Shown: in pieces, positions 1 through 28,338 of the stretch
Numbering within the stretch: position 1 is the first letter of the stretch
How the letters are laid out: every line of letters starts with the position of its first letter
IMG/VR virus record: IMGVR_UViG_3300031673_000122
Reading direction: 5' to 3' (one strand)
Origin: a virus
DNA length: 44,586 nt
Position numbers and translations under genes: made by a program
The notes under the pieces: model-generated
Databases searched by the model: none
Seen by the model: only the letters and a program-made list of their open reading frames with translations
Told to the model about the DNA's origin: nothing

Positions 1-127
1 CGGGTCTGGTTGAGGATAATGTTCTGATTGCCGATACAGTGCTCAAAATCCTCGATGCAGGCTCTATGTTTGAGTCACGAAACACCCTGTCTACGACTGC
101 CGATACAGATGGTCTGCCTAACTGGGT
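1..127. repeat. Terminal overlap copy 1. Nt 1-127 are identical to nt 44460-44586, so the contig closes into a 44,459-bp circle or is terminally redundant.
   Basis: Both ends were read base by base (cgggtctggttgaggataatgttctgattgcc...gatggtctgcctaactgggt). There is no mismatch over 127 nt, and an ORF crosses the junction in frame. Confidence 0.95.
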
Positions 128-797
128 TATCGAAGGTGGTTTAATAGACTCTATTGGTGCTCAGGATGCCAACATCCAACAGATAGAAGATTTTCTGGCT
201 CTGAATGACGCTAACTCCAAAACACTGGTAACGGCTGCCGGATTGCACGATGCAAACTTTACGCTCATAACAACCTGGCGAGGTTTGCAGGATGCTAACA
301 TCGGACAGTTGGAAGCTGCGGCCCTGCCTTCTTATAGTCATCCGAACTACTTCACGATTGACGCCAATATGACGAGTGTAACGTGGAACTCAGTAGCTGC
401 TCACGAGATAGCTGATGTAACGGGTAATGTCAGGATGACGATAATGGCGGAGTGTACCCACGAGAACCTCGTGTCAGCGGGAACCAATGCGACTATTGTG
501 TTGGGAGTTGCTGGTAATACGTCTGCTATCTGGGCTTCGGCAAACGTAGATGACTGGGATTTAGGTGAGGTTGCTTCGGCGGTTTATGCCGGTGCTCCGA
601 CATACCCTCTTGGTGTAGGCGAGGCCCATTCCTCTCTTACGCATGTATTGACGGACGTTGTGATTGTTGGAGGTCTTGATGTCGGGTATACCATTGGAAC
701 AAGTGCCGGAACATTGGGCACAATTAAATGGCATGTCTGGTGGACCCCTTTGGATTCAACGGGTGCTGTAACTGCCGGAGCAGGCGGCGGATTCTAA
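1..797 (+). CDS. C-terminal ~264 aa of the junction-spanning tailspike/depolymerase-like protein. Same gene as 43607..44586; 549 aa when joined.
   Basis: The frame of track ORF 39..797 has its first full codon at nt 3. This is the same phase as the open frame from ATG 43607 once 44460 is equated with 1. The stop is TAA at 795-797. The region holds four xDAN repeats spaced ~14 aa apart. Confidence 0.8.
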   Translation, partial: GLVEDNVLIADTVLKILDAGSMFESRNTLSTTADTDGLPNWVIEGGLIDSIGAQDANIQQIEDFLALNDANSKTLVTAAGLHDANFTLITTWRGLQDANIGQLEAAALPSYSHPNYFTIDANMTSVTWNSVAAHEIADVTGNVRMTIMAECTHENLVSAGTNATIVLGVAGNTSAIWASANVDDWDLGEVASAVYAGAPTYPLGVGEAHSSLTHVLTDVVIVGGLDVGYTIGTSAGTLGTIKWHVWWTPLDSTGAVTAGAGGGF

Positions 798-804
798 TTT
801 TAAC

Positions 805-833
805 GGGGGCAGGAAACTGCCCCCTGTATTTTC
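805..833 (+). terminator. Intrinsic terminator after the tailspike gene
   Basis: Perfect 8-bp stem GGGGGCAG/CTGCCCCC with a GAAA tetraloop, followed by TGTATTTTC. Confidence 0.8.
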
Positions 834-843
834 ATGGTGATGT

Positions 844-1695
844 ATGGCAAATGCAGATGAAAAGGCGGCGATTACCAATATAGCTTTACTGGCTGTGGGC
901 CAAAAACTGATTACTTTGCTGACTGACGGTACACCTCATGTCAATAAAATCGCTGCCATCTTCGAGGATATCGTCAAGGAATTGCTGTCTAAAGACTGGA
1001 TCTTCAGTCGCAGAAGGATCCACACGGACGATATGACGGCCATTAACAAGCTGACGGTCGATACGGCACCTACGGTGGCAGTGTGGGCGGTTGGGGCAAC
1101 CTTAACAGGGGCAACGAGTCTGAAAACCTGCGTAGTAGTCGCCAGGTTAAACGACACTACTTACCTTGTGACCGAGCCGAGCGGAGACTTTACCGATGGC
1201 GAGATTATCAGCGATGGCGTCAATAGTGTGGACTGCGCTACTGGTTATCCTGTTGTCGATGAGGCCCTTGATATTGGCGGGAACGATTACGGATACTTAA
1301 TGCCGACCGACCAGCTCTTTATAAGAGGTCTTGGGGCAGCGAATTATGATGATGTCAAATATCGGTATCACAGGGAAGGCAAAATCATCTTTACAAATTA
1401 CTATGACTGCTACTGGCACTATAACAGATGGATGGGTGAGGCTGAGAGCACGACTGTAAGCGATGTAACTATAATGCCGAACTGGTTCCACAGGTTAATT
1501 TCGGCAAGACTGGCCGATATCCTGTCCCCTAATATCACAGAGAATCAGAGAGTGCGCTCAAAGGTGTCTTATGAATTAGAGGCAGCGTGGCTTTTCGCAA
1601 GAGAGGCCAACGGGGACGAAACTTTCAACGAAAATGAACAGGGAAATACCGATTGGCGGGATGGTGCCAATAACGAACTTCAAGCATTAGGATAA
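844..1695 (+). CDS. Tail tubular protein A / adaptor-like protein (T7 gp11-like)
   Basis: 283-aa ORF. The N-terminus ITNIALLAVGQKLITLLTDGTP...VKELLSKDWIFSRRR parallels the T7 gp11 N-terminal pattern as I recall it (VNDILASIGEPPVSTLE...SRGWTFN). It sits in the tail module. Confidence 0.55.
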   Translation: MANADEKAAITNIALLAVGQKLITLLTDGTPHVNKIAAIFEDIVKELLSKDWIFSRRRIHTDDMTAINKLTVDTAPTVAVWAVGATLTGATSLKTCVVVARLNDTTYLVTEPSGDFTDGEIISDGVNSVDCATGYPVVDEALDIGGNDYGYLMPTDQLFIRGLGAANYDDVKYRYHREGKIIFTNYYDCYWHYNRWMGEAESTTVSDVTIMPNWFHRLISARLADILSPNITENQRVRSKVSYELEAAWLFAREANGDETFNENEQGNTDWRDGANNELQALG

Positions 1696-1708
1696 GGAGA
1701 TTTTTGAA

Positions 1709-2305
1709 ATGAAAAAGATACTGTTTCTCATACTTGTTTTGATTATGGCCGGTTCGGCCCGGGCAGACGAGATTTATACGCCACAGATGACGGCAGTGCT
1801 GATATCGGCTGTCGAGGCCAACGATACGGCACTTGACGTTAATACTGCAAGCTGGGCTTACGCTAAAAGCTGGACACAGATACCTGCGACATGGAGCACG
1901 TTAAAGGTCATGTTCTACGCTACCGAGCCGAATGACCCTAACGGAGAATCACTGACCACAGATGGCGAGACGTTTAGTTTCAAGTTTTATATCGCTGATT
2001 ATGGAAATAACGGTCAGGTGGTTGCTGATTGCAATGCGACTGTAGGTGCAATGCTTTTATCTCACAATCCCATAACGCTTGCTGAACTTGCCAGTGGTTC
2101 CGGCGACCCCAATACTAATTGGGTGGATACTATCTCTACCCCTGTAGAGGCATGGAATGGCACTGTTGCCGCACAAAATAACGCAGGTGAGGACGGTGCG
2201 GCATCTCTTGTAATTGGCCGAGAGAGTGGGAAAACGGCAAAATGTATAATAACCAACAGGTCATCGGGCTATCTGCACGTTAATTGTATCGCTTACGGGT
2301 ACTAA
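1709..2305 (+). CDS. Tail-module protein of unknown function with a signal-peptide-like N-terminus
   Basis: Strong RBS AAGGAGA lies 8 nt upstream. The N-terminus is MKKILFLILVLIMAGSARA|DE (basic residues, a hydrophobic core, then an AxA-like site). Confidence 0.6.
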   Translation: MKKILFLILVLIMAGSARADEIYTPQMTAVLISAVEANDTALDVNTASWAYAKSWTQIPATWSTLKVMFYATEPNDPNGESLTTDGETFSFKFYIADYGNNGQVVADCNATVGAMLLSHNPITLAELASGSGDPNTNWVDTISTPVEAWNGTVAAQNNAGEDGAASLVIGRESGKTAKCIITNRSSGYLHVNCIAYGY

Positions 2306-4024
2306 ATGAAAAAAACAGTTTTATTACTACTGATTGTCCTGACAGGTTCTCTGTTTGCGGATACCTCCGGCGAAAATTATACGCTGGTAAGCGACACAAA
2401 AAGAGAAATTACGGTAACAGGCTCGAGGCCGTTTACCGGCGATGCCAATCTCGGCGGCCATTTCTTTTTGAATACCGGACACGGTAAGGGAGAGGTGCTG
2501 TTCGCTAATTCTGTTGGAGATATCATTTCAGATGCGAATTTATACTGGGATGATGTTAACAGCGTTCTCGTGGGGGTGGACCACGGCGGTCTTACCGGCC
2601 TTGATGATGCAAACGACCATACATGGGCGCTTTTAATCGATGCGACAAGGGATTTGATTAACGACTGGGTTATTTCAGCCAATAGTATCACCCTGACCGC
2701 AGGCACTTTGACCGCTGAGCAGATAACTTCGACTGATGATATGAATGTTACCAACGACCTTCTGGTCGGCGGCCACGCAGCCTTTGGTTCTGATGCCACA
2801 ATTCACGAACACTGGCCGTTCAGAATAATGGATACCTATACCGGCACGACAACTATTTATTTCGGGCAAGACCTAGCCATAATACACAATCCTTCGGCAA
2901 ATAGGACAATTTCTGGCGGTCTGAATTTCAGTCATACTTGGAAACCTTCAGGTTCGTATAGAATTACCAACATGTTCGGCAACAGGGGGTTGATAATAGT
3001 AAAATCTGTAGACGCCTCTGCCGACAATCCCTACGCAACCACCGCATCTTGTATGTATTCCGGTTTTGCAGTAGCACCAGGTGCTACTGCCACAGGTGCA
3101 CCGTATATTACCCAAGCTAATCATTTTTCGACAGGTGCGGTAACAGTAACCGCCCCGGCCTATATAACAACGCTCTGTGGTTATTATGATGCAGGACAAA
3201 CCGCAGGCGTTACCAACTGGGGCTTTTATGGCCTAAGTGCCAACAACTATCTATCAGGCAATCTGTATTTAGGCCAGACGGACGGCACGATAAAGATTTG
3301 GTCTGGTGCAGATGGGTATTTGGATTTGGCCGCCGATGTGGGGATTCGGCTTGCAGGCCACGCTACAGCTACGGGTATCATCAAGAGCACCCACAGTTAT
3401 ACTTCAGGTCTGGCGGATGCCGCCTTTTACGCCCGTTCTGCAAGTCCAAGAATTTCCCTGTTAGACACGGATTCTGGTACAGGTTGGTCGATAAGTACAG
3501 ATGATTCTGGTAATTTTGGTTTTTCAACCGATACCGAAGCTGGAGCGCCATCTACAAAGGCCTATTTCAATAACAGTGGCGACCTGCTTATGTACGGCGA
3601 CGGCGACCTCGTGATGTATAGCGGGGTTATCACTGTTGAGCCAGCAGGCGACCTTAATTTACAAGGCGGTGGTCTTGTCGGTGGCCCACAAAAAGGTGCT
3701 GATGTCCATATCACAGCAGGCCCTGCTGTGACCGCTGGCCCCGGACAAGACGGCGGCAGTATCACTCTAACCCCCACAGTCGCAGCAGGCGGCACGGACG
3801 GCTCGGTCAAGATAGGCGACGGCGGAACGACAGATTATACGAATATAGCTCTTAATGGCACGACTTCTTTTGTCGGGGCTGCCGAACTTATTATACCAAG
3901 CAGTACGACTTTGCCAGGAACGGCAAACGTGGGTTCGTTGTACCTTGATACCGATGCCGGTGCGAATGGCACTGTGTATATGTACGCTAACGGGGCATGG
4001 AGAGTTTTAGTTGCTTTGCCTTGA
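2306..4024 (+). CDS. Tail fibre-like protein with a signal-peptide-like N-terminus
   Basis: 572 aa, rich in Gly/Thr/Ala/Asp. The N-terminus is MKKTVLLLLIVLTGSLFA|DT. The start is coupled to the upstream stop (TAAATG). It lies between the adaptor and nozzle genes. Confidence 0.55.
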   Translation: MKKTVLLLLIVLTGSLFADTSGENYTLVSDTKREITVTGSRPFTGDANLGGHFFLNTGHGKGEVLFANSVGDIISDANLYWDDVNSVLVGVDHGGLTGLDDANDHTWALLIDATRDLINDWVISANSITLTAGTLTAEQITSTDDMNVTNDLLVGGHAAFGSDATIHEHWPFRIMDTYTGTTTIYFGQDLAIIHNPSANRTISGGLNFSHTWKPSGSYRITNMFGNRGLIIVKSVDASADNPYATTASCMYSGFAVAPGATATGAPYITQANHFSTGAVTVTAPAYITTLCGYYDAGQTAGVTNWGFYGLSANNYLSGNLYLGQTDGTIKIWSGADGYLDLAADVGIRLAGHATATGIIKSTHSYTSGLADAAFYARSASPRISLLDTDSGTGWSISTDDSGNFGFSTDTEAGAPSTKAYFNNSGDLLMYGDGDLVMYSGVITVEPAGDLNLQGGGLVGGPQKGADVHITAGPAVTAGPGQDGGSITLTPTVAAGGTDGSVKIGDGGTTDYTNIALNGTTSFVGAAELIIPSSTTLPGTANVGSLYLDTDAGANGTVYMYANGAWRVLVALP

Positions 4025-4033
4025 GTTTAAACT

Positions 4034-4366
4034 ATGAAAAAGGCGGTATTTTTTTCGATTATTATATTTTGCTCAATGGTTGTGGCGGCTCCGCTATTTA
4101 ATTCGTTCAATTCCGGCGCTTTGACCCCGCTACTGAAGTACCGTGTCGATTTGCAAAAGAGGCAGATGGGTTCTGAGACTATGGAGAATATGCTGGTAAA
4201 GGTACAAGGGGCTGTTTTCCGCAGGCCCGGGACCGAGTATATCGGCGATGTCAACGATTCCAATACGCCATCGAGACTGCTGCCGTTCGAGTATTCGGAT
4301 ACGGACGCATACGTCCTTGATTTTAGTCATAATAGTATAGGATTTTATCGAACCGTTGGAGATTAG
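4034..4366 (+). CDS. Small tail-module protein. It is the short paralogue of 4368..6065: N-module plus C-strand only.
   Basis: 110 aa. A hydrophobic leader MKKAVFFSIIIFCSMVVAAP is followed by FNSFNSGALTPLLKYRVDLQKR...RRPGTEYIGDV and LLPFEYSDTDAYVLDFSHNSIGFYRT. Both segments are shared with the next ORF. Confidence 0.6.
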   Translation: MKKAVFFSIIIFCSMVVAAPLFNSFNSGALTPLLKYRVDLQKRQMGSETMENMLVKVQGAVFRRPGTEYIGDVNDSNTPSRLLPFEYSDTDAYVLDFSHNSIGFYRTVGD

Positions 4367-4367
4367 A

Positions 4368-6065
4368 ATGAAGTTGAGAACAATTTTATTGCTGCTGCTG
4401 ATGGCCTCAACCGCCTTTTCAGGTGAGCTGGAAAGCTCTTTTAACGCCGGTGAGCTGAGTCCGCTTGTGAAATATCGGGTAGATATTGAAAAACGCAATA
4501 GCGGCGTTGAGGAGATGGAGAACATGCTGGTCAAACCGCAGGGTGCGGCGGCAAGAAGGCCGGGGACGGAGTACATCGGACAAATATCAGGAATAATCTA
4601 TCCGAGTTACACCCCATACAATCCGACTGTGCCGGAAAATGTAACCTGTATTATGAAAGAGACCAATAACATTCGCTTATTGTTGAGTGATGGTGATATT
4701 AAATTAACTGCCGGCGGAGTTGCCCGTAGTCTTGGTGGCAGTATTGTAGGCTTGCCGTGCGTAGGTAATCCATTCGTGGCAGGTCAAAGAGTCCAGTTCG
4801 GCGGCACAACGAGTTATAGCGGTACCACTGGTTTTGTTGTCCAAGCTGGAAATACAATAAATGAGATTGTTATAGACAGAGGTTTTCCTTTTGCCGCCGA
4901 AACTTTTGACGGTGATGAATCAGTCATCCGAATTTTATTAAATGTGATTGATACCAGTGCCGGTTATCCATGTGTGATTGATGATTATAATATCTACTTT
5001 CCGACTGTTTATGTAGCGGGTGGTTCGCAGACTTGCCTTTTCCGAATGGACGGTACGGATTTTAGTCTTGACGGTACTTGGGCGGATGCACCACCTGCCG
5101 GATGGGGTGCGGCAGAATATGGCCGGAGTGCAAACCCGACCAGTGACGGTGCATATATTTATCTGCTTACAATCGACAATCCGAGTCTGGCTTCGGATAT
5201 TTACAAATACCAGGTTTCGGATGGTTCATGTGTCTGGAAATCCGCCGATTCTCACGGCAGCCGAACATACGGCAGATTAGGTGTTGATAGTGATGACAAT
5301 GTTTACGGTGGGTATGTTCTAAAAGCAACGCCGACTGTTGGATATTGGCCGGCAAAATTTGACGAGGATGGTAATTTGCTTCTGCATTTCATAAAAGAAG
5401 ATGCCAGTGGAAACAACGAGGTAATGAATGCAGATGTTGCAATACACGAAAAATTAGGTCTGGTAGCTTTTGGATGCGGGCAATACTACGGCGGGGGAAT
5501 GGACACGCATTTAATTAACATATTCGATTTATCTGGAACTTGGCAATCTCAATTCGGAACACAGGAAAACGGCAAAGGTTGTATTCAGTTACAATGGGTA
5601 GGCAATTATTTATATGCCCTAATGGGAGAAGTAACTTATGACGGCGACACTGTAAATATCTTCAAATTCGACTCAGACCTGAATGTCCTTGCCAGTAGCT
5701 ATATACAATATGGTGCAACAATGTGGCGGGGTACTGATGGTAATATGTGGTTCGCAAGAGATGATTATTATTATGATGGTGACGAGCATGTTGTTGTCCT
5801 TGATATTGACAATTTGAGCGAGATAAAAATTGTAAAAACTAATCAGGTTCAATCCAATAGTAATTATATTCTCAATCCTGACGGCTTCGTTCTCAGCCCT
5901 TCGATGGATACCTACTGGAGCCAATTAGCTTCTGATGAAGCGGCTGCCGTAACCGTAGAACCCAACGACCCGATTCGTCTTATCCCCTTCGAGTACTCGA
6001 CAGACGATTCTTACGTTTTAGCTTTTGGCCATCAATACATAGGTTTTTACAGGACAACAGATTAG
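4368..6065 (+). CDS. Receptor-binding-type tail protein. It is the long paralogue of 4034..4366, with a ~450-aa beta-propeller-like insertion.
   Basis: ATG 4368 lies 2 nt after the upstream stop, with GGAG just upstream; the track start 4356 is a TTG. The leader is MKLRTILLLLLMASTAFS|GE. The shared N-module is FNAGELSPLVKYRVDIEKR...RRPGTEYIGQI and the shared C-strand is LIPFEYSTDDSYVLAFGHQYIGFYRT. The middle has repeated D-x-D/G-N-hydrophobic turns (VDSDDNVYG, FDEDGNLL, TDGNMWF). Confidence 0.6.
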   Translation: MKLRTILLLLLMASTAFSGELESSFNAGELSPLVKYRVDIEKRNSGVEEMENMLVKPQGAAARRPGTEYIGQISGIIYPSYTPYNPTVPENVTCIMKETNNIRLLLSDGDIKLTAGGVARSLGGSIVGLPCVGNPFVAGQRVQFGGTTSYSGTTGFVVQAGNTINEIVIDRGFPFAAETFDGDESVIRILLNVIDTSAGYPCVIDDYNIYFPTVYVAGGSQTCLFRMDGTDFSLDGTWADAPPAGWGAAEYGRSANPTSDGAYIYLLTIDNPSLASDIYKYQVSDGSCVWKSADSHGSRTYGRLGVDSDDNVYGGYVLKATPTVGYWPAKFDEDGNLLLHFIKEDASGNNEVMNADVAIHEKLGLVAFGCGQYYGGGMDTHLINIFDLSGTWQSQFGTQENGKGCIQLQWVGNYLYALMGEVTYDGDTVNIFKFDSDLNVLASSYIQYGATMWRGTDGNMWFARDDYYYDGDEHVVVLDIDNLSEIKIVKTNQVQSNSNYILNPDGFVLSPSMDTYWSQLASDEAAAVTVEPNDPIRLIPFEYSTDDSYVLAFGHQYIGFYRTTD

Positions 6066-6097
6066 TGAATAGTCGTTAGTGAATAGTGAGTAGAAAA

Positions 6098-8185
6098 ATG
6101 AATAAACGACTTAAAATGTTAAAAATTATGGTACTGTTTGCTTGTTGTTTTTTATGCAGAACCGGCTGGGCTGCAAGCGGTCAAATACTCGATGCAAACG
6201 ACCCGAACTACGCCTATTATATAACCAGTCCTTATGACGGTAACGACCTGAGAGGGATACAATACGTCCAAATCCACGATGTGATGTATCTTGTCCACCC
6301 GGACTATCCGGTCCAGAAATTATGCCGTTACAATCACGCCGACTGGACAATCGCCGATGTCAACTGGCAGTGGGGGCCATTCCTCACTGATAATATCACG
6401 ACAACAACAATAACACCGTCAGATACCAACGGTGCAATTACTCTGATTGCAGATGCGAATATCTTTGACGGTAACCATGTCGGGGCACTGTGGAAAATCA
6501 CCGAAAAAGCGGACAATACGACCACAAGCGGGACACTTGACGCCAACGAATCCAGTAGTGAGGTAGCAATCGAGGGCGATGCTTTATTGACGCTCGAAGA
6601 AACGTGGATAGGTCTGGTAACACTTGAAAAAAGCGATAACGGCGGTACGAGCTGGGACCCTGTGTACCCGAAACTCAACGGCGATGCAGCCAATATCCAA
6701 TATAGCTTTAACGAAGGTTCGCCCGGCTACTCTTATCGCCTGACTATGAGTGCCTATAGTAGTGGAAGCTGTAAATATACCATTGTGGCCTATAATACCG
6801 ATGTGGCCGGATACGTTGAGATAACGGCCTTTATCGATGCAAATGAGGTTAATGCCACTGTCTATAGCGAACTGGCCGGCATAGCAGCTACTACAAAATG
6901 GGCCGAGGGTGCCTGGAGTGCCTACAGGGGTTATCCGAGGGCGATATGTGTGTACCAGAACCGGCTATGCCTTGCAGGGACGTCATACATACCGAACGGG
7001 TTCTGGACATCGGTTTCCGGCGGCGATTACGATAATATGCGAAATTCATCGCTGGACGATGGGGCTATCGTCTATGAGGCAAGCTCAGCGAAACAAAACC
7101 CTATACTCTGGCTACAGGATAAAAGCGGGGTTATAGCCGGTACTTCAGGCTCGGCGATCCGGATTTTCAGTCAATCGTCGAACTCCACACTTACACCGGC
7201 TTCTATCGGTTCGGAACGTCAATCGCAATCGGGAAGCTGTAGTATGCAGGCCCAGCTCATAGGCGACTCAATCGTCTTTGTCGATAGGAACCGCCGCAAG
7301 GTCAAGGATATACTCTACGACCTGCAAAGTGATAGTTTCGTATCGCCGGAACTGACGATATTCGCCGAACACATAACCGACCCCTGCCTTGTGGAAGTGG
7401 CCGTGCAACACAGACCTGACCCGATATTGTGGTATATCAAAGGCGATGGCAACGCCGTATCACTGACGTATAACAGGGACCAGGCCGTTGTAGCCTGGAC
7501 GGAGCATGTAACGGACGGAAACTTCGAGTCCGTTACCGTGATTCCCGGCCTGACCGAAGATGATGTCTGGTTCGTTGTGCAAAGAGAGATTAACAGTGTT
7601 AATCTTAGGTATATCGAAAAACTCAAAGAGCAGGACTGGGGTACAGATGCCAACGACTGCTGGTACGTTGATTCAGGATTGGATTATGACTCTAACGAAA
7701 CGGCTATTATAACCGGACTCAGCCACTTGGAAGGTAAGTTAGTACAGGTCTTTTACGGCGGTAACTCGGTCCAGACCGCGACTGTAAGCGATGGTAATAT
7801 TGCACTCGACCCGAATGTAGCTTATGCGACTGTGGGACTGCCGTTTACATCGACATTGATAACTTTCCCGATTGAGCTGCCTATGCAGACCGGATATACG
7901 GTTGGCTATAAAAAGAAAATATACGAGGTTGTCGGCTGTTTCTATAAGACGATGTACGGGCGGTACGGCCTTGTCGGGCAGTTTACGGACCCGACAATGT
8001 ACGATATTCCGTTCAGGGCGTGGCCGGATACCACTTTGGGTTCGGATGCCCCGTTCACCGGGGAAATCAGGTTGGAAATAGACGGCGGATGGGACGATGA
8101 ACTCCGCCTGAAATTCGACCAGAACGAACCCTACCCGCTCAATCTGACGGCGTTATCAATAAAAATTGAGGTTAGTGAGAATTAA
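6098..8185 (+). CDS. Nozzle / tail tubular protein B-like protein (T7 gp12 slot) with a hydrophobic signal-like N-terminus
   Basis: ~695 aa from ATG 6098; GTG 6086 is an alternative start. The segment YRGYPRAICVYQNRLCLAGTSYIPNGFWTSVSGGDYDNM and the position directly upstream of the internal virion genes fit podovirus nozzle proteins. The N-terminus is MNKRLKMLKIMVLFACCFLCRTGWAAS. Confidence 0.55.
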   Translation: MNKRLKMLKIMVLFACCFLCRTGWAASGQILDANDPNYAYYITSPYDGNDLRGIQYVQIHDVMYLVHPDYPVQKLCRYNHADWTIADVNWQWGPFLTDNITTTTITPSDTNGAITLIADANIFDGNHVGALWKITEKADNTTTSGTLDANESSSEVAIEGDALLTLEETWIGLVTLEKSDNGGTSWDPVYPKLNGDAANIQYSFNEGSPGYSYRLTMSAYSSGSCKYTIVAYNTDVAGYVEITAFIDANEVNATVYSELAGIAATTKWAEGAWSAYRGYPRAICVYQNRLCLAGTSYIPNGFWTSVSGGDYDNMRNSSLDDGAIVYEASSAKQNPILWLQDKSGVIAGTSGSAIRIFSQSSNSTLTPASIGSERQSQSGSCSMQAQLIGDSIVFVDRNRRKVKDILYDLQSDSFVSPELTIFAEHITDPCLVEVAVQHRPDPILWYIKGDGNAVSLTYNRDQAVVAWTEHVTDGNFESVTVIPGLTEDDVWFVVQREINSVNLRYIEKLKEQDWGTDANDCWYVDSGLDYDSNETAIITGLSHLEGKLVQVFYGGNSVQTATVSDGNIALDPNVAYATVGLPFTSTLITFPIELPMQTGYTVGYKKKIYEVVGCFYKTMYGRYGLVGQFTDPTMYDIPFRAWPDTTLGSDAPFTGEIRLEIDGGWDDELRLKFDQNEPYPLNLTALSIKIEVSEN

Positions 8186-8611
8186 ATGATGAGTGTTCGG
8201 AAAATGACTATAGCCGATATAGCGGTCCTTAAACTTCCAGAACAGTGGATGCGGGATAGATACGAGATGTATCTCGATGCCGGAACGGGGCCGGCCTGGA
8301 TTATGGAGGATAACGGCAGGCCGCTTTGTGCGTTCGGAGCGGCTTTCCTGTGGGATGGTGTGTGCGAGGTCTGGTTTAACCTGATTGAAAAGACAAATAC
8401 TATAGGCCAGATACGGGCGGCAAAAAGATACCTGCTCGAACAGGGCAAAAAGTACAAAGTTCGCAGATTCCATGCGACTATCAAATGCGACTCTAAAATC
8501 AGCAGTAGATTCGTTGAGGCTTTAGGTTTCAAGTGTGAAACACCCAACGGGATGAAAAATTATAACCCTGACGGCTCGACGGCATATTTGTATTCGAGGA
8601 TAATTGAATGA
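8186..8611 (+). CDS. Small GNAT-fold-like virion protein in the T7 gp13 / phiKMV internal-virion-protein-A slot
   Basis: 141 aa. The pattern EDNGRPLCAFGAAF..GVCEVWFNL...KYKVRRFHATI...SSRFVEALGF matches my recollection of the DUF2833 / internal virion protein A family. Synteny also fits. Confidence 0.45.
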   Translation: MMSVRKMTIADIAVLKLPEQWMRDRYEMYLDAGTGPAWIMEDNGRPLCAFGAAFLWDGVCEVWFNLIEKTNTIGQIRAAKRYLLEQGKKYKVRRFHATIKCDSKISSRFVEALGFKCETPNGMKNYNPDGSTAYLYSRIIE

Positions 8612-17629: not shown

Positions 17630-17642
17630 TTTGACAAGTTAA
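17629..17642. repeat. 14-nt direct repeat TTTTGACAAGTTAA, copy 2, starting at the discriminator position of the tRNA-like gene
   Basis: Exact match to 17133-17146. Confidence 0.6.
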
Positions 17643-17671
17643 AACCGGCGGCGGCATAGGTTAAACCGCCC
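17636..17671 (+). promoter_or_regulatory. Intergenic GC hairpin carrying two repeated motifs: AAGTTAAAACCGGCGGCGGC plus ATAGGTTAAACCGCCC
   Basis: GGCGG (17650-54) pairs with CCGCC (17666-70), and the loop is CATAGGTTAAA. The first motif recurs at 18301-18320 with 1 mismatch. The second recurs exactly at 17826-17841. It is followed by CTTTT and the RBS of a small ORF. Confidence 0.5.
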
Positions 17672-17689
17672 TTTTGAAAGGATTGAAAA

Positions 17690-17824
17690 ATGGATGAAGA
17701 TAAAGCGAGTGAAATATACTGGCAAGCGGTGCATCTTCTACAAGAAGTAATTGATAGCGGCCATAGAGGTAGTGAAGAGGACATTTTGGAAGAACTTGAA
17801 GAAGATTTAAAGCGGCGGCGATGA
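17690..17824 (+). CDS. 44-aa acidic helical protein, below the ORF-track cutoff
   Basis: Translated by hand: MDEDKASEIYWQAVHLLQEVIDSGHRGSEEDILEELEEDLKRRR*. The RBS is AAAGGATTGA. Confidence 0.45.
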   Translation: MDEDKASEIYWQAVHLLQEVIDSGHRGSEEDILEELEEDLKRRR

Positions 17825-17841
17825 TATAGGTTAAACCGCCC
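17812..17841 (+). promoter_or_regulatory. Second copy of the GGCGG...ATAGGTTAAACCGCCC hairpin motif
   Basis: GGCGG/CCGCC stem with ATAGGTTAAA again in the loop. It overlaps the stop of 17690..17824 and precedes the next small ORF. Confidence 0.45.
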
Positions 17842-17875
17842 AGCAATAATAACTTTTTAAGGAAAGGATTGAGTA

Positions 17876-18055
17876 ATGATTACATTAAAGGATTTTTTAC
17901 CAAGCAACAGACCAGTAGAAAATCAGGTGGGCGATTTAGGTCAATTTCTTATTGAAAATTTCGAGGACGACATGGGCGGAAGCGAGAAAGCCGCTGGCGA
18001 AGGCGCGATAGAAATGGCGGTTAGACTGTTGATGGAATACAAAAAGATAAGGTAA
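17876..18055 (+). CDS. 59-aa acidic protein, below the ORF-track cutoff
   Basis: Translated by hand: MITLKDFLPSNRPVENQVGDLGQFLIENFEDDMGGSEKAAGEGAIEMAVRLLMEYKKIR*. The RBS is GGAAAGGATTGAG. Confidence 0.45.
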   Translation: MITLKDFLPSNRPVENQVGDLGQFLIENFEDDMGGSEKAAGEGAIEMAVRLLMEYKKIR

Positions 18056-18092
18056 ACGGCTTGGCGGCAAGGACTTTGAAAAGGAGATTGAA

Positions 18093-18299
18093 ATGAGTCA
18101 GAATTTGGTTGAACGATTACAAGAGGTAATAAATGAAGCCAAAGATGCTTTACGCATTAGTCTTGAAATGGATTCTCGACCAAATGCTGGCTTGGCTATG
18201 ATGAAACTTTATATTCTTGAGGCCGAAAAAGCACAGGTTGGTGGTGATGTGGTTGCTATGTTACGAGCAGTAAAAAACCTTGAAAGTTATGGTTTTTGA
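18093..18299 (+). CDS. 68-aa helical protein, possibly a paralogue of 17690..17824
   Basis: The RBS is AAAGGAGATTGAA. ERLQEVINEA resembles HLLQEVIDSG of the first small ORF. Confidence 0.5.
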   Translation: MSQNLVERLQEVINEAKDALRISLEMDSRPNAGLAMMKLYILEAEKAQVGGDVVAMLRAVKNLESYGF

Positions 18300-18300
18300 A

Positions 18301-18320
18301 AAGTTAAGACCGGCGGCGGC
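18301..18320 (+). repeat. Repeat of the AAGTTAA(A/G)ACCGGCGGCGGC motif
   Basis: 19/20 identical to 17636-17655. CGGCGGC pairs with GCCGCCG at ~18388-18394, which is followed by ATTTTT. Confidence 0.5.
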
Positions 18321-18467
18321 TTGCAAAAATGAAAAAACGAAAAAGGGTTGGAATAGCGCTGCTGAACAAGGCTTGTAGCCTATAACTGCCGCCGATTTTT
18401 AGATGCGTAAAAGAGTATTTTTTAAGAGAAGGCTAAAATCTCAATAACATTGTGGTCAGGATTAAAA

Positions 18468-18983
18468 ATGCGAATCATAAAAACAATAATTAGTTGTATT
18501 GGCGTATTATTCGGATTTGTGCCGGACTGCGGCGGTGCAGTGCAAACTGAACATGATTGTTGGTTCGGTTTGGACAAGGAAATCTCGACTATCTATTCGG
18601 CAGCGATGCGTAACGGTTGCAAAGGCGTTGATTTTCTGCTGCTCTGTGCAATCAGAAAAGCTGAGAACGGCGACAAGTTCCGTGAATTCGGGATTATCCA
18701 CCCGGCCTGCGAAGCGGCGATGGAAGCTGAACCGAACCGAACGATTGATATACAGGCAGGCAGGGCTGCGGCAACGATTATGAAAAATAGAAAGCGGTGG
18801 GCCGAGGCAGGGATGCCGGGTACGTTCATCGAATTTCTGGCCGATAAATATTGCCCAAAGGAGTGCGATACTGTCGGCAATTTGAATTGGAAAAGGAATG
18901 TAAAATTCTGGTTTAAGAAATTTAGTCTGCAACATCACCGAGAACCCCGAATTGCTGGAACAAAAAAAGTAATCAATGCCTGA
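18468..18983 (+). CDS. Signal-anchored protein with a possible lysozyme/transglycosylase-like domain; candidate SAR-type endolysin (tentative)
   Basis: ATG 18468; the track start 18450 is a TTG. The N-terminal hydrophobic segment is IIKTIISCIGVLFGFV. LLLCAIRKAENGDKFREFGI resembles the catalytic-Glu helix of SLT-like enzymes, but this is recollection only. Confidence 0.35.
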   Translation: MRIIKTIISCIGVLFGFVPDCGGAVQTEHDCWFGLDKEISTIYSAAMRNGCKGVDFLLLCAIRKAENGDKFREFGIIHPACEAAMEAEPNRTIDIQAGRAAATIMKNRKRWAEAGMPGTFIEFLADKYCPKECDTVGNLNWKRNVKFWFKKFSLQHHREPRIAGTKKVINA

Positions 18984-19293
18984 TAGAACAGGACAGCTTG
19001 TTATCGACTTTATGGCAACGGCCCGAAGGGAACATCCCATCCAATCTTTTATGGCGGCTGATAAGAAGAATAAAAGCGATACCTTATCGGCTGACCGGCT
19101 GGATGTTTTAAAGGCTGTGTATTGGCATCCTGGCAGAACGGCCAAGCTGCTTGATACCCTCTACAGATTGAACGGCAAGGCACACCGCAGAGCGCCGGAG
19201 CTTGCGAATATGGGCCTGATATATCGCGATAAATCGGGTAGCGAGATGAGATTGTACATAACAGAAGAAGGACACAGAAAACTGAATCGGTAA
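18976..19293 (+). CDS. Winged-helix DNA-binding protein (MarR-like)
   Basis: 105 aa. LDVLKAVYWHPGRTAKLLDT...RRAPELANMGLIYRDKSG has the look of a wHTH recognition helix plus wing. Confidence 0.45.
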   Translation: MPDRTGQLVIDFMATARREHPIQSFMAADKKNKSDTLSADRLDVLKAVYWHPGRTAKLLDTLYRLNGKAHRRAPELANMGLIYRDKSGSEMRLYITEEGHRKLNR

Positions 19294-19392
19294 GGGATGA
19301 ACTATGAAAGTTTTATTTAAACTGTCTATGCCTAACTGTGGTCAGTCGGCAAGACAATAAAGTATCTATTTTAACGAGAAAGGAATGGCAAC

Positions 19393-19821
19393 ATGGAACA
19401 TACAGACGGAAAAATGGAACTTGTAGATAGTGGTATTGGCACAATCACTTGTATCAAAGTAGGCGAAGTACATATTGCACAGCTTGCCTCTTGCAATTAC
19501 AAAACCAAAACCGAAGAGTTGTTCATGCACAAATTACAAATTGCAAATGCCCGCCGAATTTGCCAATGCTGGAATAATCACGATGCTTTGCTGGCAGCGT
19601 GCAAAGAACAGAACAACATTATCCACCAAGTTTGTTTGCAATTATTGAGATGGGCGGCTGAGTTTCAATCCAAAGAAGGCTGGTCAACATATCGAATTGC
19701 ACCAATAGCAAAGTTAGCGACACAATTGGCGGCAGCAGAAACAAAATTTGAACCCGCCATCGCCGAAGCAGAGAGAAAGGAAAACCATGAACGGGCTTTT
19801 AGAAAGAGTGGAAACTGCTGA
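19393..19821 (+). CDS. Hypothetical protein
   Basis: 142-aa ORF with an ATG start in a compact + strand array. Confidence 0.5.
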   Translation: MEHTDGKMELVDSGIGTITCIKVGEVHIAQLASCNYKTKTEELFMHKLQIANARRICQCWNNHDALLAACKEQNNIIHQVCLQLLRWAAEFQSKEGWSTYRIAPIAKLATQLAAAETKFEPAIAEAERKENHERAFRKSGNC

Positions 19822-20020
19822 AGCTGTGATGTTCCAGATAAACAAGTGGCCTCGGTATCGGCGACTGAGGGACCACAAAAAGCTATTGGCGAAAACTTTA
19901 CATAGATTCAATCTTGAAACTCAATGTCGTGATTGCGGTGCTGTGATGCCGACAGCGATAAACCATGTAAATTGTATCGACTGCAACTCAAGTAATACAT
20001 GCTCGCCATATTACTGCTGA
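19787..20020 (+). CDS. Small Cys-rich (zinc-ribbon-like) protein
   Basis: ATG 19787 follows the RBS GAGAGAAAGGAAAA. CRDCG...CIDC motifs are present. Confidence 0.45.
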   Translation: MNGLLERVETAEAVMFQINKWPRYRRLRDHKKLLAKTLHRFNLETQCRDCGAVMPTAINHVNCIDCNSSNTCSPYYC

Positions 20021-20042
20021 AAAACATAGAAAGGAAAGGAAA

Positions 20043-20966
20043 ATGGAAACAAAAACACAACCTGAACAAGTAGAAGCAACACCAGTAGAAGGCCCATCAA
20101 CTGAAATCGCAAGGGTACTAAACGAAGGCGACCCGGATATGCAACTTGCGATTCTTGAAAAGAAGGCGACATTAGCCATTCGATTTTCACAGGCTATAAA
20201 CACAATCCTGATAACGCAGACCTATCCTGAAGATTGGAAACAATTCGGGGAAGGCGATAAGGCAACAGTCTGCCTGTCGTCTGCTGGTGCTGAAAGAGTG
20301 GCCCGACATTTCGGTATCAAGATATTCGAGGTGACGAATCGCAAAGAGGAGTTCACGGATACTCTTGGTAAAGGCTATCGCTATATCTTTGAGGGTAAGG
20401 CTGCTATGGGGGACAGACTCACCTATGCACAGGGAACATACAGCACCCGTGACAAATTCCTCGGCTACAAAGGCAATAGTTACAGGGCTGTCGAGGACAT
20501 CAACGAAAACGATATCAGGGACGCTGCCTACCACATTTTTACAGGCAATGCCATAAAAGGCTTGCTCGGCCTGCGTGGAATACCGGCTGCACGATTTGCG
20601 GAGATTATGGGCAGAGCCGGTGAAAACGCAGACAAATCGACAAAGGTTTCGCACGGTGCAGGTACGCAGGGCGGAACATCTGCCGATGACACAAAAAATC
20701 AGCAGGAGTTATCAAAAATCCTGATTGATATGGCAAATGCCAGCCAGATGATTGTTGTCGATGACATAGGCAAATACAGTACCGAGGGAACATCCGAAAT
20801 TGCCGATTCAATAGAGGTTGCAAAAGCATCCTGCAAAGCCCTTACTTCGTTCTACAGCAAAAAAGACAGTAAGATGGTTTCCGGTATCGAAAGCATCAAG
20901 GCGTTAAAAGGAAAAAGGCTTTCGATAGCCCTGGAAAATGCAAAGAACTTGCAGCAAGGGGGATAA
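20043..20966 (+). CDS. Single-strand annealing protein (RecT/Rad52-superfamily-like recombinase)
   Basis: 307 aa. The segment CLSSAGAERVARHFGIKI...GYRYIFEGKA...AYHIFTGNAIKGLLGLRGI resembles phage SSAPs as I recall them. It lies directly upstream of an exonuclease gene. Confidence 0.5.
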   Translation: METKTQPEQVEATPVEGPSTEIARVLNEGDPDMQLAILEKKATLAIRFSQAINTILITQTYPEDWKQFGEGDKATVCLSSAGAERVARHFGIKIFEVTNRKEEFTDTLGKGYRYIFEGKAAMGDRLTYAQGTYSTRDKFLGYKGNSYRAVEDINENDIRDAAYHIFTGNAIKGLLGLRGIPAARFAEIMGRAGENADKSTKVSHGAGTQGGTSADDTKNQQELSKILIDMANASQMIVVDDIGKYSTEGTSEIADSIEVAKASCKALTSFYSKKDSKMVSGIESIKALKGKRLSIALENAKNLQQGG

Positions 20967-20967
20967 A

Positions 20968-21972
20968 ATGGAAACAATCAGTAATATGACAATAGATATA
21001 CAAAGCGGAATCAGGGCAGTTTTACACCGCAAGAAAAAAGTTTTTCAACAGCACGTCAATCGCATCAGTGGGATGGACGACCCGTGCTTGCGAAGTCTGT
21101 ATTATGCTCGGCACGACTGGGACAAGGCATCTGCGATTGATGATGGTTTGCAGGGCATATTCGAGACAGGTAATGTCTTAGAGCCAGTTATCGAGCGAAT
21201 CGTTTCGGAAGTGGGTTTGGAATCTACTCCGCAATGGCGGATTGTCGGAACACAGACAAGCACAAACGATAATCTTCTGAAAGAGTACCAGATAAGCGGA
21301 ACGATTGACGGGTTTTTGCAAATCAAAGACCCTGAAAGAATAAAAGATAATAACAGTGGTTGGGTAACTTTAGGCGTTGTTGACATAAAAACAATGTCAC
21401 CAAACATTTATCCTCGCATTAACGACTTTGAATCTCTGGGCCGTTTCCCCTGGACACGCAGGTATAGAGGTCAGTTGATGCTCTATGCACTGGCCCATAA
21501 TCTCGAAATGTGCTATCTGCTTTTAGACAACAAGCAAAATCTTTTCGAGATGAAATTGATCAGCTTTCCCGTTGATATGGCATATTGCGATAACCTACTG
21601 GAAAAAGCAAAGATTGTCAATGAGGCGATTGAGACAGAAACCCCGCCCGTAGGCATAAGCGATCCTGATACCTGCCCCAAATGCAAATTCTTTTCGTTCT
21701 GCTGTCCGGACATTGTTACCGGTAAAGATTTGCAGGTTATCGATAATGATGAATTGGCGGCTGTTCTCGACCGAATGGCTGAACTTGAACCTGTTGAAAA
21801 GGAATATTGTGAACTTGAAAAACAACGGGATGCCTTACTAATTAAAGGTCAGGACGTTGCCTGTGGTAATTGGCTTGTTATCTGGAAAAAAATCATAAAG
21901 AACTTTGGGGCATCACCAGCAAAAGAGGCTTTCACAAGAGAGGAATGGCGTAAATCAATTACAAGGACATAG
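20968..21972 (+). CDS. PD-(D/E)XK exonuclease of the Cas4/RecB type with a four-Cys cluster
   Basis: ATG 20968 follows AAGGGGGATAAA. Motifs are GTIDGF, VVDIKT and RGQLMLYA. There is an N-terminal Cys (DDPCLRSLYY) plus a C-terminal CPKCKFFSFCC. Confidence 0.7.
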   Translation: METISNMTIDIQSGIRAVLHRKKKVFQQHVNRISGMDDPCLRSLYYARHDWDKASAIDDGLQGIFETGNVLEPVIERIVSEVGLESTPQWRIVGTQTSTNDNLLKEYQISGTIDGFLQIKDPERIKDNNSGWVTLGVVDIKTMSPNIYPRINDFESLGRFPWTRRYRGQLMLYALAHNLEMCYLLLDNKQNLFEMKLISFPVDMAYCDNLLEKAKIVNEAIETETPPVGISDPDTCPKCKFFSFCCPDIVTGKDLQVIDNDELAAVLDRMAELEPVEKEYCELEKQRDALLIKGQDVACGNWLVIWKKIIKNFGASPAKEAFTREEWRKSITRT

Positions 21973-21976
21973 CCAA

Positions 21977-22135
21977 ATGAGAATTATCGGAAAAATACGC
22001 TGCTTTGTATCGGGACACAAGACCCGATATTTCGATGAGCAGTACGATTACTGTTGGCAATGTGGGCACATGAGAAAAAGGATTGACGGAGATAAAGACA
22101 CGGATGTCAACGCATCAAGTCCAGCAAATAATTGA
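21977..22135 (+). CDS. 52-aa Cys-containing small protein, below the ORF-track cutoff
   Basis: Translated by hand: MRIIGKIRCFVSGHKTRYFDEQYDYCWQCGHMRKRIDGDKDTDVNASSPANN*. It overlaps the next gene's start region. Confidence 0.3.
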   Translation: MRIIGKIRCFVSGHKTRYFDEQYDYCWQCGHMRKRIDGDKDTDVNASSPANN

Positions 22136-22559: not shown

Positions 22560-22594
22560 AGCAGGCTCATAGTTTGCTACCTGCTCGTTTTTTT
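22560..22594 (+). terminator. Intrinsic terminator
   Basis: AGCAGG (22560-65) pairs with CCTGCT (22580-85) and is followed by CGTTTTTTT. Confidence 0.65.
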
Positions 22595-22604
22595 GGAAGA
22601 CAAA

Positions 22605-23326: not shown

Positions 23327-23335
23327 GGTCGACAG

Positions 23336-24583: not shown

Positions 24584-24646
24584 CAAGAATCAGGATTGCG
24601 AAATTACGTATACGAACGGCAAGACTTATTATCACCGATACAGCAA

Positions 24647-24667
24647 GAAAGGCAGGTGAATGATATG
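24647..24667 (+). promoter_or_regulatory. Junction motif copy 2
   Basis: AGAAAGGCAGGTGAATGATATG. Confidence 0.7.
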
Positions 24668-28144: not shown

Positions 28145-28161
28145 AAAAGTGAAAGCAAGAT

Positions 28162-28335: not shown

Positions 28336-28338
28336 GCT

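What the first reader, a model, noticed from the sequence alone, without database searches (positions are those of the whole stretch)
1709..8185. Sec-type signal-peptide-like N-termini on six tail-module proteins, including the nozzle homologue and the tailspike
Five consecutive tail ORFs, plus the junction-spanning tailspike at 43607, all begin with a short basic stretch, 13-18 hydrophobic residues, and a small-x-small site:
- MKKILFLILVLIMAGSARA|DE
- MKKTVLLLLIVLTGSLFA|DT
- MKKAVFFSIIIFCSMVVAAP
- MKLRTILLLLLMASTAFS|GE
- M(N)KRLKMLKIMVLFACCFLCRTGWAAS|GQ
- MKKLIFLLIMLIMATSAFG|YT

The starts are supported by RBSs or stop-start coupling. No alternative downstream ATG would remove the leaders.

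Tailed-phage virions assemble in the cytoplasm. Exported or membrane-anchored tail fibres, tailspikes and especially a gp12-like nozzle are therefore not expected.

Possible explanations:
- transient membrane tethering of tail components
- secreted free depolymerase and receptor-binding proteins
- an N-terminal hydrophobic helix used for tail attachment
- assembly tied to an unusual host cell plan
Basis: partly seen in the sequence, partly recalled or inferred. Interest (0 to 1): 0.75.

Follow-up and report, generated by a model that had tools for sequence, protein, structure and literature searches.

The report
Export signals on phage tail proteins
In this short-tailed phage and a deep clade of uncultured relatives, every tail protein beyond the head-tail adaptor, including the core nozzle, starts with a textbook secretion signal; this suggests that part of the tail is made outside the cytoplasm, which I found described for no tailed phage.

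Summary
The window is a circular 44.5-kb BPP-1/T7-like podovirus genome. The tailspike, two fibre-like proteins and three nozzle pieces each begin with a basic stretch, a hydrophobic core of about 15 residues and a small-x-small site.

- **Split nozzle.** p4034 and p4368 are two versions of its first ~100 residues, and p6098 is the rest. Each piece has its own leader.
- **Conservation.** In the window plus six related contigs (nozzle identity 38-70%), 40 of 42 distal-tail proteins carry a leader. Only 1 of 57 head, adaptor and internal proteins does (p = 4e-24).
- **Nozzle homologues.** Seventy of 120 carry a leader, placed before four different entry points into the fold. The site obeys the signal peptidase I rule at a fixed distance from the mature domain, and the early mature region lacks positive charge.
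- **Outgroups.** More distant relatives and all cultured relatives found have no leader. Two relatives have one on the tailspike only.

Best reading: these are genuine Sec signal peptides. The distal tail is exported and joins adaptor-capped heads once the inner membrane is breached. Export itself is untested and the host is unknown. I found no precedent.

The parts
43607..44586 (+). Tailspike, N-terminal part of a 549-aa protein. It continues at window 128-797 across the circular junction. The leader is at 43607-43663 (MKKLIFLLIMLIMATSAFG). A ~45-aa conserved attachment region follows, then a right-handed beta-helix.
   Evidence: Homologues P0124-P0126, P0131, P0132 and P0134-P0138 keep a leader directly before the conserved SAFDI.W... 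start.
1..797 (+). C-terminal part of the same tailspike. Bases 1-127 repeat the window end.
844..1695 (+). Adaptor (tail tubular protein A / gp11-like), 283 aa, with NO leader. It marks the proximal boundary of the leader-bearing set.
   Evidence: phrog_394, E = 2e-15. Its orthologues in L004-L009 are also leaderless.
1709..2305 (+). 198-aa tail protein of unknown fold. The leader is at 1709-1765 (MKKILFLILVLIMAGSARA/DE).
   Evidence: Orthologues L004_5222 and L009_7281 also carry leaders. No Pfam or PHROG match.
2306..4024 (+). 572-aa fibre-like tail protein. The leader is at 2306-2359 (MKKTVLLLLIVLTGSLFA/DT).
   Evidence: Orthologues L004_5821, L005_8620 and L009_7834 have leaders followed by a conserved DT.G..Y.L start.
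4034..4366 (+). Nozzle N-terminal piece (fold residues ~1-100), 110 aa, with its own leader at 4034-4090.
   Evidence: phrog_376 positions 4-92, E = 5e-25. tblastn hits fall in the N-termini of cultured-phage tail tubular B genes from residue ~15-24 onward. Counterparts are L004_7821 and L006_9687.
4368..6065 (+). Second nozzle N-terminal piece, 565 aa, carrying a ~460-aa inserted domain of unknown fold. The leader is at 4368-4421 (MKLRTILLLLLMASTAFS/GE).
   Evidence: Residues 18-69 match residues 10-61 of the PDB 8CK1 nozzle, and residues 533-562 match residues 69-98. phrog_376 also matches. Counterparts are L004_8180 and L006_7999.
6098..8185 (+). Nozzle C-terminal piece (fold residues ~100 to the end), 695 aa. 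The leader is at 6098-6172, with the likely cut at GWA/ASGQ.
   Evidence: phrog_376 positions 101-711, E = 1e-150. Matches 8CK1 residues 103-820, E = 3e-64. The (-3,-1) site is conserved at a fixed distance from G(Q/R)ILD in 25 homologues.
8186..15849 (+). Internal virion / ejection proteins: a 141-aa protein, a gp14-like protein (159 aa), a protein in the gp15 position (557 aa) and a protein in the gp16 position (1696 aa). None has a leader. They mark the distal boundary of the leader-bearing set.
   Evidence: phrog_308/4177, phrog_418 and PF24072 T7_gp14 for the first two. The 557-aa and 1696-aa proteins have no family match and are assigned by position and size only. N-termini are; orthologues are.

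Best explanation
**What they are.** The leaders are genuine cleavable Sec (signal peptidase I type) signal peptides. Their very hydrophobic cores suggest co-translational, SRP-type targeting.

**Proposed pathway.**
1. Every tail protein distal to the adaptor is exported across the inner membrane and loses its leader. This covers the nozzle (here in three pieces), the fibres and the tailspike.
2. These proteins fold, and probably pre-assemble, in the periplasm of a diderm host.
3. Heads are assembled, filled and capped by the leaderless adaptor in the cytoplasm.
4. The two halves meet and join only when the inner membrane is breached late in infection.

**Shown:** the sequence features, their conservation, their restriction to distal tail proteins, and their independence of fold position.

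**Inferred:** actual export and cleavage, the periplasmic site of folding, and the timing of head-tail joining.
For: 1. **Canonical three-part leader.** In 70 nozzle leaders the n-region is net positive in 68/70, the h-core has a median of 15 aa, and only 7 are 19 aa or longer.
2. **Cleavage site.** At a fixed distance from the conserved mature start G(Q/R)ILD, position -3 of the cut is C/A/V/G/T in 23/25. Position -1 is A/G/S in 23/25, with an aromatic residue or Leu at -2.
3. **Early mature region avoids K/R.** K/R occurs there in 5/41 leader-bearing nozzles against 25/33 leaderless ones (p = 4e-8). Sec substrates require this.
4. **Position independence.** Leaders precede the fold at ~residue 1 (40 proteins), ~70 (3), ~100 (24) and ~112 (3). 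Each separately translated nozzle piece has its own leader. That is what a targeting signal needs and what a structural element would not show.
5. **Compartment logic.**
   - 40/42 distal-tail proteins carry a leader, against 1/57 head, adaptor and internal proteins, across the window and six relatives.
   - The trait is phylogenetically coherent over deep divergence.
   - It is absent from the outgroup L010 and from all cultured relatives found.
6. **Graded states.** L013 and L016 have a leader on the tailspike only, with a leaderless nozzle. The tailspike is taken to join last, by analogy with P22 (my own knowledge).
7. **Precedent in principle.** Phage late proteins are known to be pre-exported by host Sec: signal-peptide endolysin Lys44 and SAR endolysins (PMC6116005).
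8. **Diderm host (inferred).** A gp14-like protein (PF24072, phrog_418) is followed by large leaderless proteins in the gp15 and gp16 positions.
Against: - No export, cleavage or localisation data exist, and no SignalP/DeepTMHMM run was possible here.
- The nozzle must bind the cytoplasmic adaptor-portal complex. Joining only after membrane breach is unprecedented for a nozzle and leaves a short time window.
- DNA-filled heads would have to be stable without a nozzle.
- Cys content and even-Cys bias do not differ between leader-bearing and leaderless nozzles, so there is no sign of periplasmic disulfide dependence.
- No endolysin or holin could be identified to support the lysis-timing step.
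- The host is unknown.
Confidence: 0.45

Rival explanations
1. Uncleaved signal anchors. The leaders insert into the inner membrane and keep the tail proteins tethered there. The membrane then acts as a two-dimensional assembly platform or holding site, with release at membrane depolarisation, analogous to SAR endolysins.
For: - The hydrophobic cores are at the long end for signal peptides: median 15 aa, with 7/70 of 19 aa or more.
- A few leaders, such as L007_5392 and L017_1584, look like true transmembrane anchors.
- SAR endolysins are a precedent for tether-and-release (PMC6116005).
Against: - The (-3,-1) small-residue site is conserved at a fixed distance from the mature domain. An anchor that is never cut does not need this.
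- The cores are Leu/Ile/Phe-rich, not the weakly hydrophobic Gly/Ala-rich type that SAR domains show (sequences; the SAR composition is my own knowledge).
- With a positive n-region the bulk of the protein would still be periplasmic, so the topological problem with the adaptor remains.
Confidence: 0.15
2. The hydrophobic N-terminal helix stays on the protein in the virion and has a structural role. It could bundle at the adaptor-nozzle junction for tail attachment, or insert into the host membrane during infection. Assembly would be cytoplasmic, as in other phages.
For: - N-termini of podovirus fibres and spikes are the usual attachment ends (established knowledge of T7 gp17 and P22 gp9).
- L013 and L016 show that a leader-bearing tailspike coexists with a leaderless, presumably cytoplasmic, nozzle.
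- AlphaFold models residues 2-24 of p6098 as a helix. This is also expected for any signal peptide.
Against: - The leader precedes four different positions of the nozzle fold, which cannot all lie at one structural site.
- Leaders are conserved only in physico-chemical pattern, whereas the residues just after them are well conserved.
- Leaderless nozzle and spike homologues work without such a helix. The solved nozzle 8CK1 has only 9 residues before the core.
- Six to several dozen exposed 15-residue Leu/Ile helices per tail would be aggregation-prone.
Confidence: 0.12
3. Dual products. The leader-bearing forms are secreted, non-virion copies, for example a free depolymerase or receptor-blocking proteins. 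Leaderless cytoplasmic isoforms made from internal starts build the virion.
For: - Five of the six window leaders contain an internal Met near the end of the hydrophobic core.
- A secreted soluble spike is plausible for the phages in which only the beta-helix spike has a leader (L013, L016, L017).
Against: - Internal Mets occur in only 14/70 homologous leaders. No Shine-Dalgarno-like sequence is evident before the p1709 internal ATG; the other four were not checked.
- There is no obvious use for a secreted nozzle core or nozzle fragments.
- The rule holds for every distal tail protein, not only for enzymes.
Confidence: 0.08
4. Annotation artefact or chance: the true starts lie downstream and the hydrophobic stretches are untranslated.
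For: Some starts have weak ribosome-binding sites.
Against: - In-frame leaders with the same three-part pattern are preserved in more than 70 divergent nozzle homologues and in about 40 other tail proteins.
- Gene spacing is tight, and no Met lies between leader and conserved core in most of them.
Confidence: 0.02

Closest known systems
T7 gp12 / BPP-1-like podovirus nozzle (tail tubular protein B; phrog_376; solved nozzle PDB 8CK1)
   Same: Clear sequence homology over the whole fold: p4034/p4368 match residues ~10-98 and p6098 matches residues 103-820 of 8CK1. Gene order is the same: adaptor, nozzle, then the internal proteins, with a gp14-like match and large proteins in the gp15 and gp16 positions.
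   Different: Known nozzles start 5-12 residues before the FN.GE core and have no leader. Here each nozzle polypeptide has a Sec-type leader. The gene is also split at fold residue ~100, and the N-piece is duplicated, with one copy carrying a ~460-aa insertion.
Sec-exported phage endolysins (signal-peptide endolysin Lys44 of phage fOg44; SAR endolysins of P1, 21 and phiKMV)
   Same: These are phage late proteins carrying an N-terminal Sec signal. They are placed outside the cytoplasm ahead of lysis and become effective when the membrane is compromised (PMC6116005).
   Different: They are lysis enzymes, not virion parts. SAR domains are weakly hydrophobic and uncleaved, whereas the leaders here are strongly hydrophobic and have a conserved signal peptidase I site.
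Filamentous phage (Ff) coat proteins pIII/pVIII
   Same: They are virion structural proteins made with signal peptides and assembled at or beyond the inner membrane (established knowledge).
   Different: That is an entirely different virion architecture with extrusion-type assembly. No capsid is filled in the cytoplasm and no tail machine is involved.
P22 tailspike gp9, added last and able to complete heads in vitro
   Same: It shows that a distal tail component can join finished heads after the fact (established knowledge). This fits the relatives in which only the spike has a leader (L013, L016).
   Different: P22 gp9 is cytoplasmic and has no signal peptide. In P22 the channel-closing proteins are cytoplasmic as well.

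Membership tests
Sec / signal peptidase I signal peptide | Short, positively charged n-region | tested here: met
   Net charge is +1 or more in 68/70 nozzle leaders, median +2. All six window leaders start MKK, MKL-R or MNKRLK.
Sec / signal peptidase I signal peptide | Uninterrupted hydrophobic h-region, shorter than a transmembrane span | tested here: met
   The h-core has a median of 15 aa (IQR 14-17), and only 7/70 reach 19 aa. This comes from my own heuristic, not from SignalP.
Sec / signal peptidase I signal peptide | c-region with small residues at -3 and -1 | tested here: met
   At a fixed distance from G(Q/R)ILD, position -1 is A/G/S in 23/25 and position -3 is C/A/V/G/T in 23/25. The pattern is the same before FN.GE-type starts.
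Sec / signal peptidase I signal peptide | No positive charge in the early mature region | tested here: met
   K/R occurs in the 8 aa before the core in 5/41 leader-bearing nozzles against 25/33 leaderless ones, p = 4e-8.
Sec / signal peptidase I signal peptide | Actual translocation and cleavage | not testable with these tools
   This needs PhoA/Bla fusions, N-terminal proteomics, or at least SignalP 6/DeepTMHMM. None was available.
Lipoprotein (signal peptidase II) signal | Lipobox [LVI][ASTVI][GAS]C with Cys at +1 | tested here: not met
   Where Cys is present it sits at -3 of the predicted cut (CFA/DS, CYG/SS). The residues before it (for example ASVC, TATC, PALC) do not form a lipobox.
Tat signal peptide | Twin-arginine motif S/T-R-R-x-F-L-K in the n-region | tested here: not met
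   None of the six window leaders has an RR motif, and it is absent from the great majority of the homologue leaders listed. The n-regions are mostly Lys-based.
SAR (signal-anchor-release) domain | Weakly hydrophobic, Gly/Ala/Ser-rich N-terminal transmembrane domain that is not cleaved | tested here: not met
   The cores are Leu/Ile/Phe/Val-rich, with a best 10-residue Kyte-Doolittle mean of 2.6-3.8. They are followed by a conserved cleavage motif.
T7 gp12-like nozzle (phrog_376) | Sequence homology across the nozzle fold | tested here: met
   phrog_376 E = 1e-150 for p6098, 5e-25 for p4034 and 1e-21 for p4368. 8CK1 E = 3e-64.
T7 gp12-like nozzle (phrog_376) | Single polypeptide starting a few residues before the FN.GE motif | tested here: not met
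   In the window the fold is split into p4034/p4368 (residues ~1-100) and p6098 (residues ~100 to the end), each with a leader. The same split occurs in L004 and L006.

The most novel reading that the evidence does not exclude
A whole clade of podoviruses builds its virion in two compartments. Heads with portal, adaptor and ejection proteins form in the cytoplasm. The complete distal tail (nozzle, fibres, spikes) is exported through Sec and folds in the periplasm. The two halves join only after the inner membrane is opened. This would be the first compartmentalised assembly pathway for a tailed phage. It may be linked to a host with an enlarged periplasm (Planctomycetota).
Probability: 0.35. 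Interest if true: 0.92.

Novelty: new variant of a known kind. Interest (0 to 1): 0.8.

Why it matters
Tailed-phage morphogenesis is treated as a purely cytoplasmic process. Here a conserved, clade-wide set of secretion signals sits on exactly the proteins distal to the adaptor, including the DNA-channel nozzle.

This would mean one of two things. Either head and tail are made on opposite sides of the inner membrane and join at lysis, or signal-peptide-like sequences have an unrecognised role in tail assembly.

Both are directly testable with leader-reporter fusions and virion N-terminal proteomics. A result either way would affect several areas:
- how tail genes are annotated in metagenomes;
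- how receptor-binding proteins and depolymerases are expressed for biotechnology, where the mature start matters;
- models of the timing of head-tail joining.

The graded states (spike only, then all distal proteins) also give an evolutionary series to study.

Tried and rejected
- **Close relatives in IMG/VR.** None found.
- **DNA similarity to cultured phages.** None. tblastn found only leaderless relatives below 50% identity. An apparent match to the leader in Pseudomonas phage Shamal lies upstream of the annotated CDS and is spurious.
- **Host identification.**
  - The genome-contig scan returned one binned phage contig labelled Anaerolineales.
  - Other MAG labels are Phycisphaerae, Planctomycetota (twice) and Pacearchaeota.
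  - The Planctomycetota contig I fetched (L013, carrying P0135) is itself a phage fragment. The contigs carrying P0049 (44.7 kb, phage-genome size) and P0130 (2.1 kb) could not be read.
  - The window has no tRNA genes.
  - The host therefore stays unknown.
- **Disulfide hypothesis.** Cys content (0.72% against 0.69%, p = 0.13) and even-Cys bias do not differ between leader-bearing and leaderless nozzles.
- **Leaders as DNA repeats or recent copies.** Pairwise identity is 48-70%, not clearly above what these short T-rich segments would give; I ran no shuffled control.
- **AlphaFold model of p6098.** Mean pLDDT was 55.6, too poor for a fold search. Only the leader helix (residues 2-24) is notable.
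- **Lysis genes.** Pfam and PHROG searches of the lysis region and early genes found no holin, endolysin, signal peptidase or chaperone that could link to the leaders.
- **Literature.** Eight full-text searches found no report of signal peptides on nozzle, fibre or spike proteins of tailed phages.
- **Conserved internal start codons.** Rejected.

Full report
**What the window is.** The first and last 127 bases are identical, so the window is a circular genome of 44,459 bp with all genes on the + strand. The structural block runs in this order:
- terminase, portal, scaffold, major capsid protein (PF20911 in the identical contig L001) and a decoration-like protein (PF21190 Bbp16 on its counterparts in relatives L006 and L007);
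- the tailspike, which wraps the junction (43607..797);
- the adaptor (844-1695, phrog_394);
- five further tail genes (1709-8185);
- internal proteins: a gp14-like one (phrog_418, PF24072) and large ones in the gp15 and gp16 positions, which have no family match.

The nearest cultured relatives are BPP-1-like and Pelagibacter-type podoviruses, at 35% nozzle identity or less. No DNA-level relative exists in the phage collection.

**Checking the observation.** Each has 2-4 basic residues, an uncharged Leu/Ile/Phe-rich core and a small-x-small site followed by acidic or neutral residues. Five leaders contain internal Met codons that could in principle give leaderless products. Such Mets are present in only 14 of 70 homologous leaders, so no second start is conserved.

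- PHROG family 376 (the nozzle, 712 positions) matches p4034 at positions 4-92.
- It matches p4368 at positions 9-60, with a second stretch after an insertion.
- It matches p6098 at positions 101-711.
- Against the solved nozzle 8CK1, p4368 residues 18-69 and 533-562 align to residues 10-61 and 69-98. p6098 aligns to residues 103-820.

The canonical single nozzle polypeptide is therefore encoded here as a C-terminal piece plus two alternative N-terminal pieces. One N-piece carries a ~460-aa inserted domain. Each piece has its own leader. The same three-gene arrangement occurs in relatives L004 and L006. L005, L007, L008 and L009 have a one-piece nozzle with a single leader.

**Conservation across relatives.** A search with p6098 returned 221 homologues. 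Among the best 120:
- 40 have a leader directly before the FN.GE core start;
- 24 have one directly before G(Q/R)ILD (fold residue ~100);
- 3 have one before LIPFE (~70);
- 3 have one before TPYD (~112);
- 33 are canonical and leaderless, with a median of 9 residues before the core;
- the rest are truncated ORFs.

On a neighbour-joining tree the leader-bearing proteins form coherent deep clades. The few 'leaderless' members inside those clades are almost all truncated ORFs or leaders that fell just under the scoring threshold.

In six related contigs (nozzle identity 38-70%) the same rule holds gene by gene. Tailspike, fibres and nozzle or nozzle pieces carry leaders. Scaffold, capsid, decoration protein, adaptor and the internal virion proteins do not. 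Pooled with the window, that is 40/42 against 1/57 (Fisher p = 4e-24). In an outgroup contig with a leaderless nozzle (L010), no tail protein has a leader.

**Are they signal peptides?** By every sequence criterion I could compute, yes.
- The n-region is net positive in 68/70 leaders. The hydrophobic core has a median of 15 residues, and few are long enough for a membrane anchor.
- At a fixed distance from the conserved mature start, the -1 position is A/G/S in 23/25 and the -3 position is C/A/V/G/T in 23/25, with an aromatic residue or Leu between them.
- The residues just before the conserved core avoid Lys/Arg in leader-bearing nozzles (5/41) but not in leaderless ones (25/33, p = 4e-8). 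This is the known requirement for Sec substrates.
- There is no lipobox, no twin-arginine motif and no SAR-like weak hydrophobicity.
- The leaders are conserved in pattern only, while the residues immediately after them are well conserved.
- They are not DNA copies of one another.

I could not run SignalP or DeepTMHMM, and nothing here shows actual export.

**Why a targeting signal is the best reading.** The decisive argument is position independence. Wherever the nozzle fold is broken into separate polypeptides, the downstream piece acquires its own leader. The leader therefore sits before four different points of the fold. A targeting signal is needed by every separately translated chain. 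A structural helix would be tied to one place in the structure.

The set of proteins that carry leaders is also exactly the set distal to the adaptor. Everything that must be inside or on the DNA-filled head lacks one.

**Graded states.**
- Two relatives (L013, L016) have a leader on the tailspike only, and their nozzle is canonical and leaderless.
- An unrelated SU10-like podovirus (L017) also has leaders on its beta-helix spikes.
- Beta-helix homologues with other N-terminal adaptor domains have no leader.

The trait therefore appears first on what is normally the last component to join. In the clade of this window it extends proximally up to, but never including, the adaptor.

**Proposed mechanism.**
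1. The distal tail proteins are targeted to Sec. This is probably co-translational given the very hydrophobic cores, which would also keep fast-folding beta-helix trimers from folding in the cytoplasm.
2. They are cleaved by host signal peptidase I and fold in the periplasm.
3. Heads are filled and capped by the adaptor in the cytoplasm.
4. Joining happens when the inner membrane is opened late in infection.

Steps 1-2 are inferred from sequence. Steps 3-4 are inference only. Exported endolysins show that phages do pre-position late proteins through Sec (PMC6116005). P22 tailspike addition in vitro (my own knowledge) shows that late joining is feasible for a spike.

The weak points are these:
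- a nozzle joining after membrane breach is unprecedented;
- the stability of nozzle-less full heads is unknown;
- no holin or endolysin could be recognised;
- no disulfide signature distinguishes the leader clade.

**Rivals.** The alternatives are an uncleaved membrane tether, a retained structural or membrane-active helix, dual secreted and cytoplasmic isoforms, and artefact. They are weighed in the rival section. The conserved cleavage motif, the position independence and the lack of conserved internal starts argue against them, but only experiments can exclude them.

**Host.** The gp14-like protein and the large proteins in the gp15/gp16 positions, plus a possible lipoprotein next to membrane proteins at 32625-34054, suggest a diderm host. 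MAG labels on related contigs are Phycisphaerae or Planctomycetota (three), Anaerolineales and Pacearchaeota. The one Planctomycetota-labelled contig I could read (L013) is a phage fragment, and the Anaerolineales, Pacearchaeota and Phycisphaerae contigs are about 45 kb, the size of a whole phage genome. The labels are therefore only a weak hint.

**Novelty.** Eight full-text searches found no report of signal peptides on nozzle, fibre or spike proteins of tailed phages. No cultured relative has them. The tail module and the signal type are both known kinds, but their systematic combination is new. I rate it a new variant of a known kind. If the two-compartment assembly is real, it would be categorically new biology.

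Noticed in passing
window 4034-8185: The nozzle gene is split at fold residue ~100. Its N-terminal piece is duplicated: p4034 is plain, and p4368 carries a ~460-aa insertion of unknown fold with very few homologues. The same three-gene layout occurs in L004 and L006, whereas L005 and L007-L009 have a one-piece nozzle.
   Followed up: partly
window 1-127 and 44460-44586: An exact 127-bp terminal direct repeat, typical of an assembler overlap on a circular or terminally redundant genome. The unique length is 44,459 bp.
   Followed up: yes
L001 2733-4700 versus window tailspike: A sibling contig with an identical nozzle protein (P0001) carries a 655-aa tailspike (P0122, 82% identical) instead of the 549-aa one. 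This is strain-level variation in the spike.
   Followed up: no
window ~140-340 (tailspike residues ~335-400): A repeated motif QDANIQQIE.F.ALNDANSK.LVT sits in the tailspike neck. The number of copies differs among homologues, with 2-5 copies in P0124 and P0125. It looks like an expandable trimeric stalk repeat.
   Followed up: no
L013 7597-13221; L016 9598-14995: These relatives have a leader on the beta-helix tailspike only. Their nozzles start canonically (MPRSQKLLQSFNKGEISP, MDLLHNTFDAGELSE) and the neighbouring tail proteins lack leaders.
   Followed up: partly
L017 1584-11896: An unrelated SU10-like podovirus (PF23899 portal, PF24175 adaptors) also has hydrophobic leaders on two beta-helix spike proteins. 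Leader-bearing spikes are therefore not confined to one phage lineage.
   Followed up: no
L006 4046-4735 and 15113-20278: A radical SAM protein is encoded inside the tail module of a relative. That relative's gp16-like internal protein carries PARP / ART-PolyVal ADP-ribosyltransferase hits.
   Followed up: no
window 31169-35109: This is a cluster of small membrane proteins: a probable lipoprotein (32625, MRKHIIISILLLFCAGC...), a multi-TM protein (32975) and an N-terminally anchored 238-aa protein (33338). Two SAM-dependent methyltransferases flank it (31476, 34055). No endolysin or holin family was recognised anywhere in the genome.
   Followed up: partly
window 16147-31000: Most early and middle genes have no Pfam or PHROG match. 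This includes the 713-aa protein at 28706-30847. Only a Cas4-like exonuclease (20938), a replication-initiator-like protein (27422) and two conserved unknowns (25864, 26571) were recognised.
   Followed up: no
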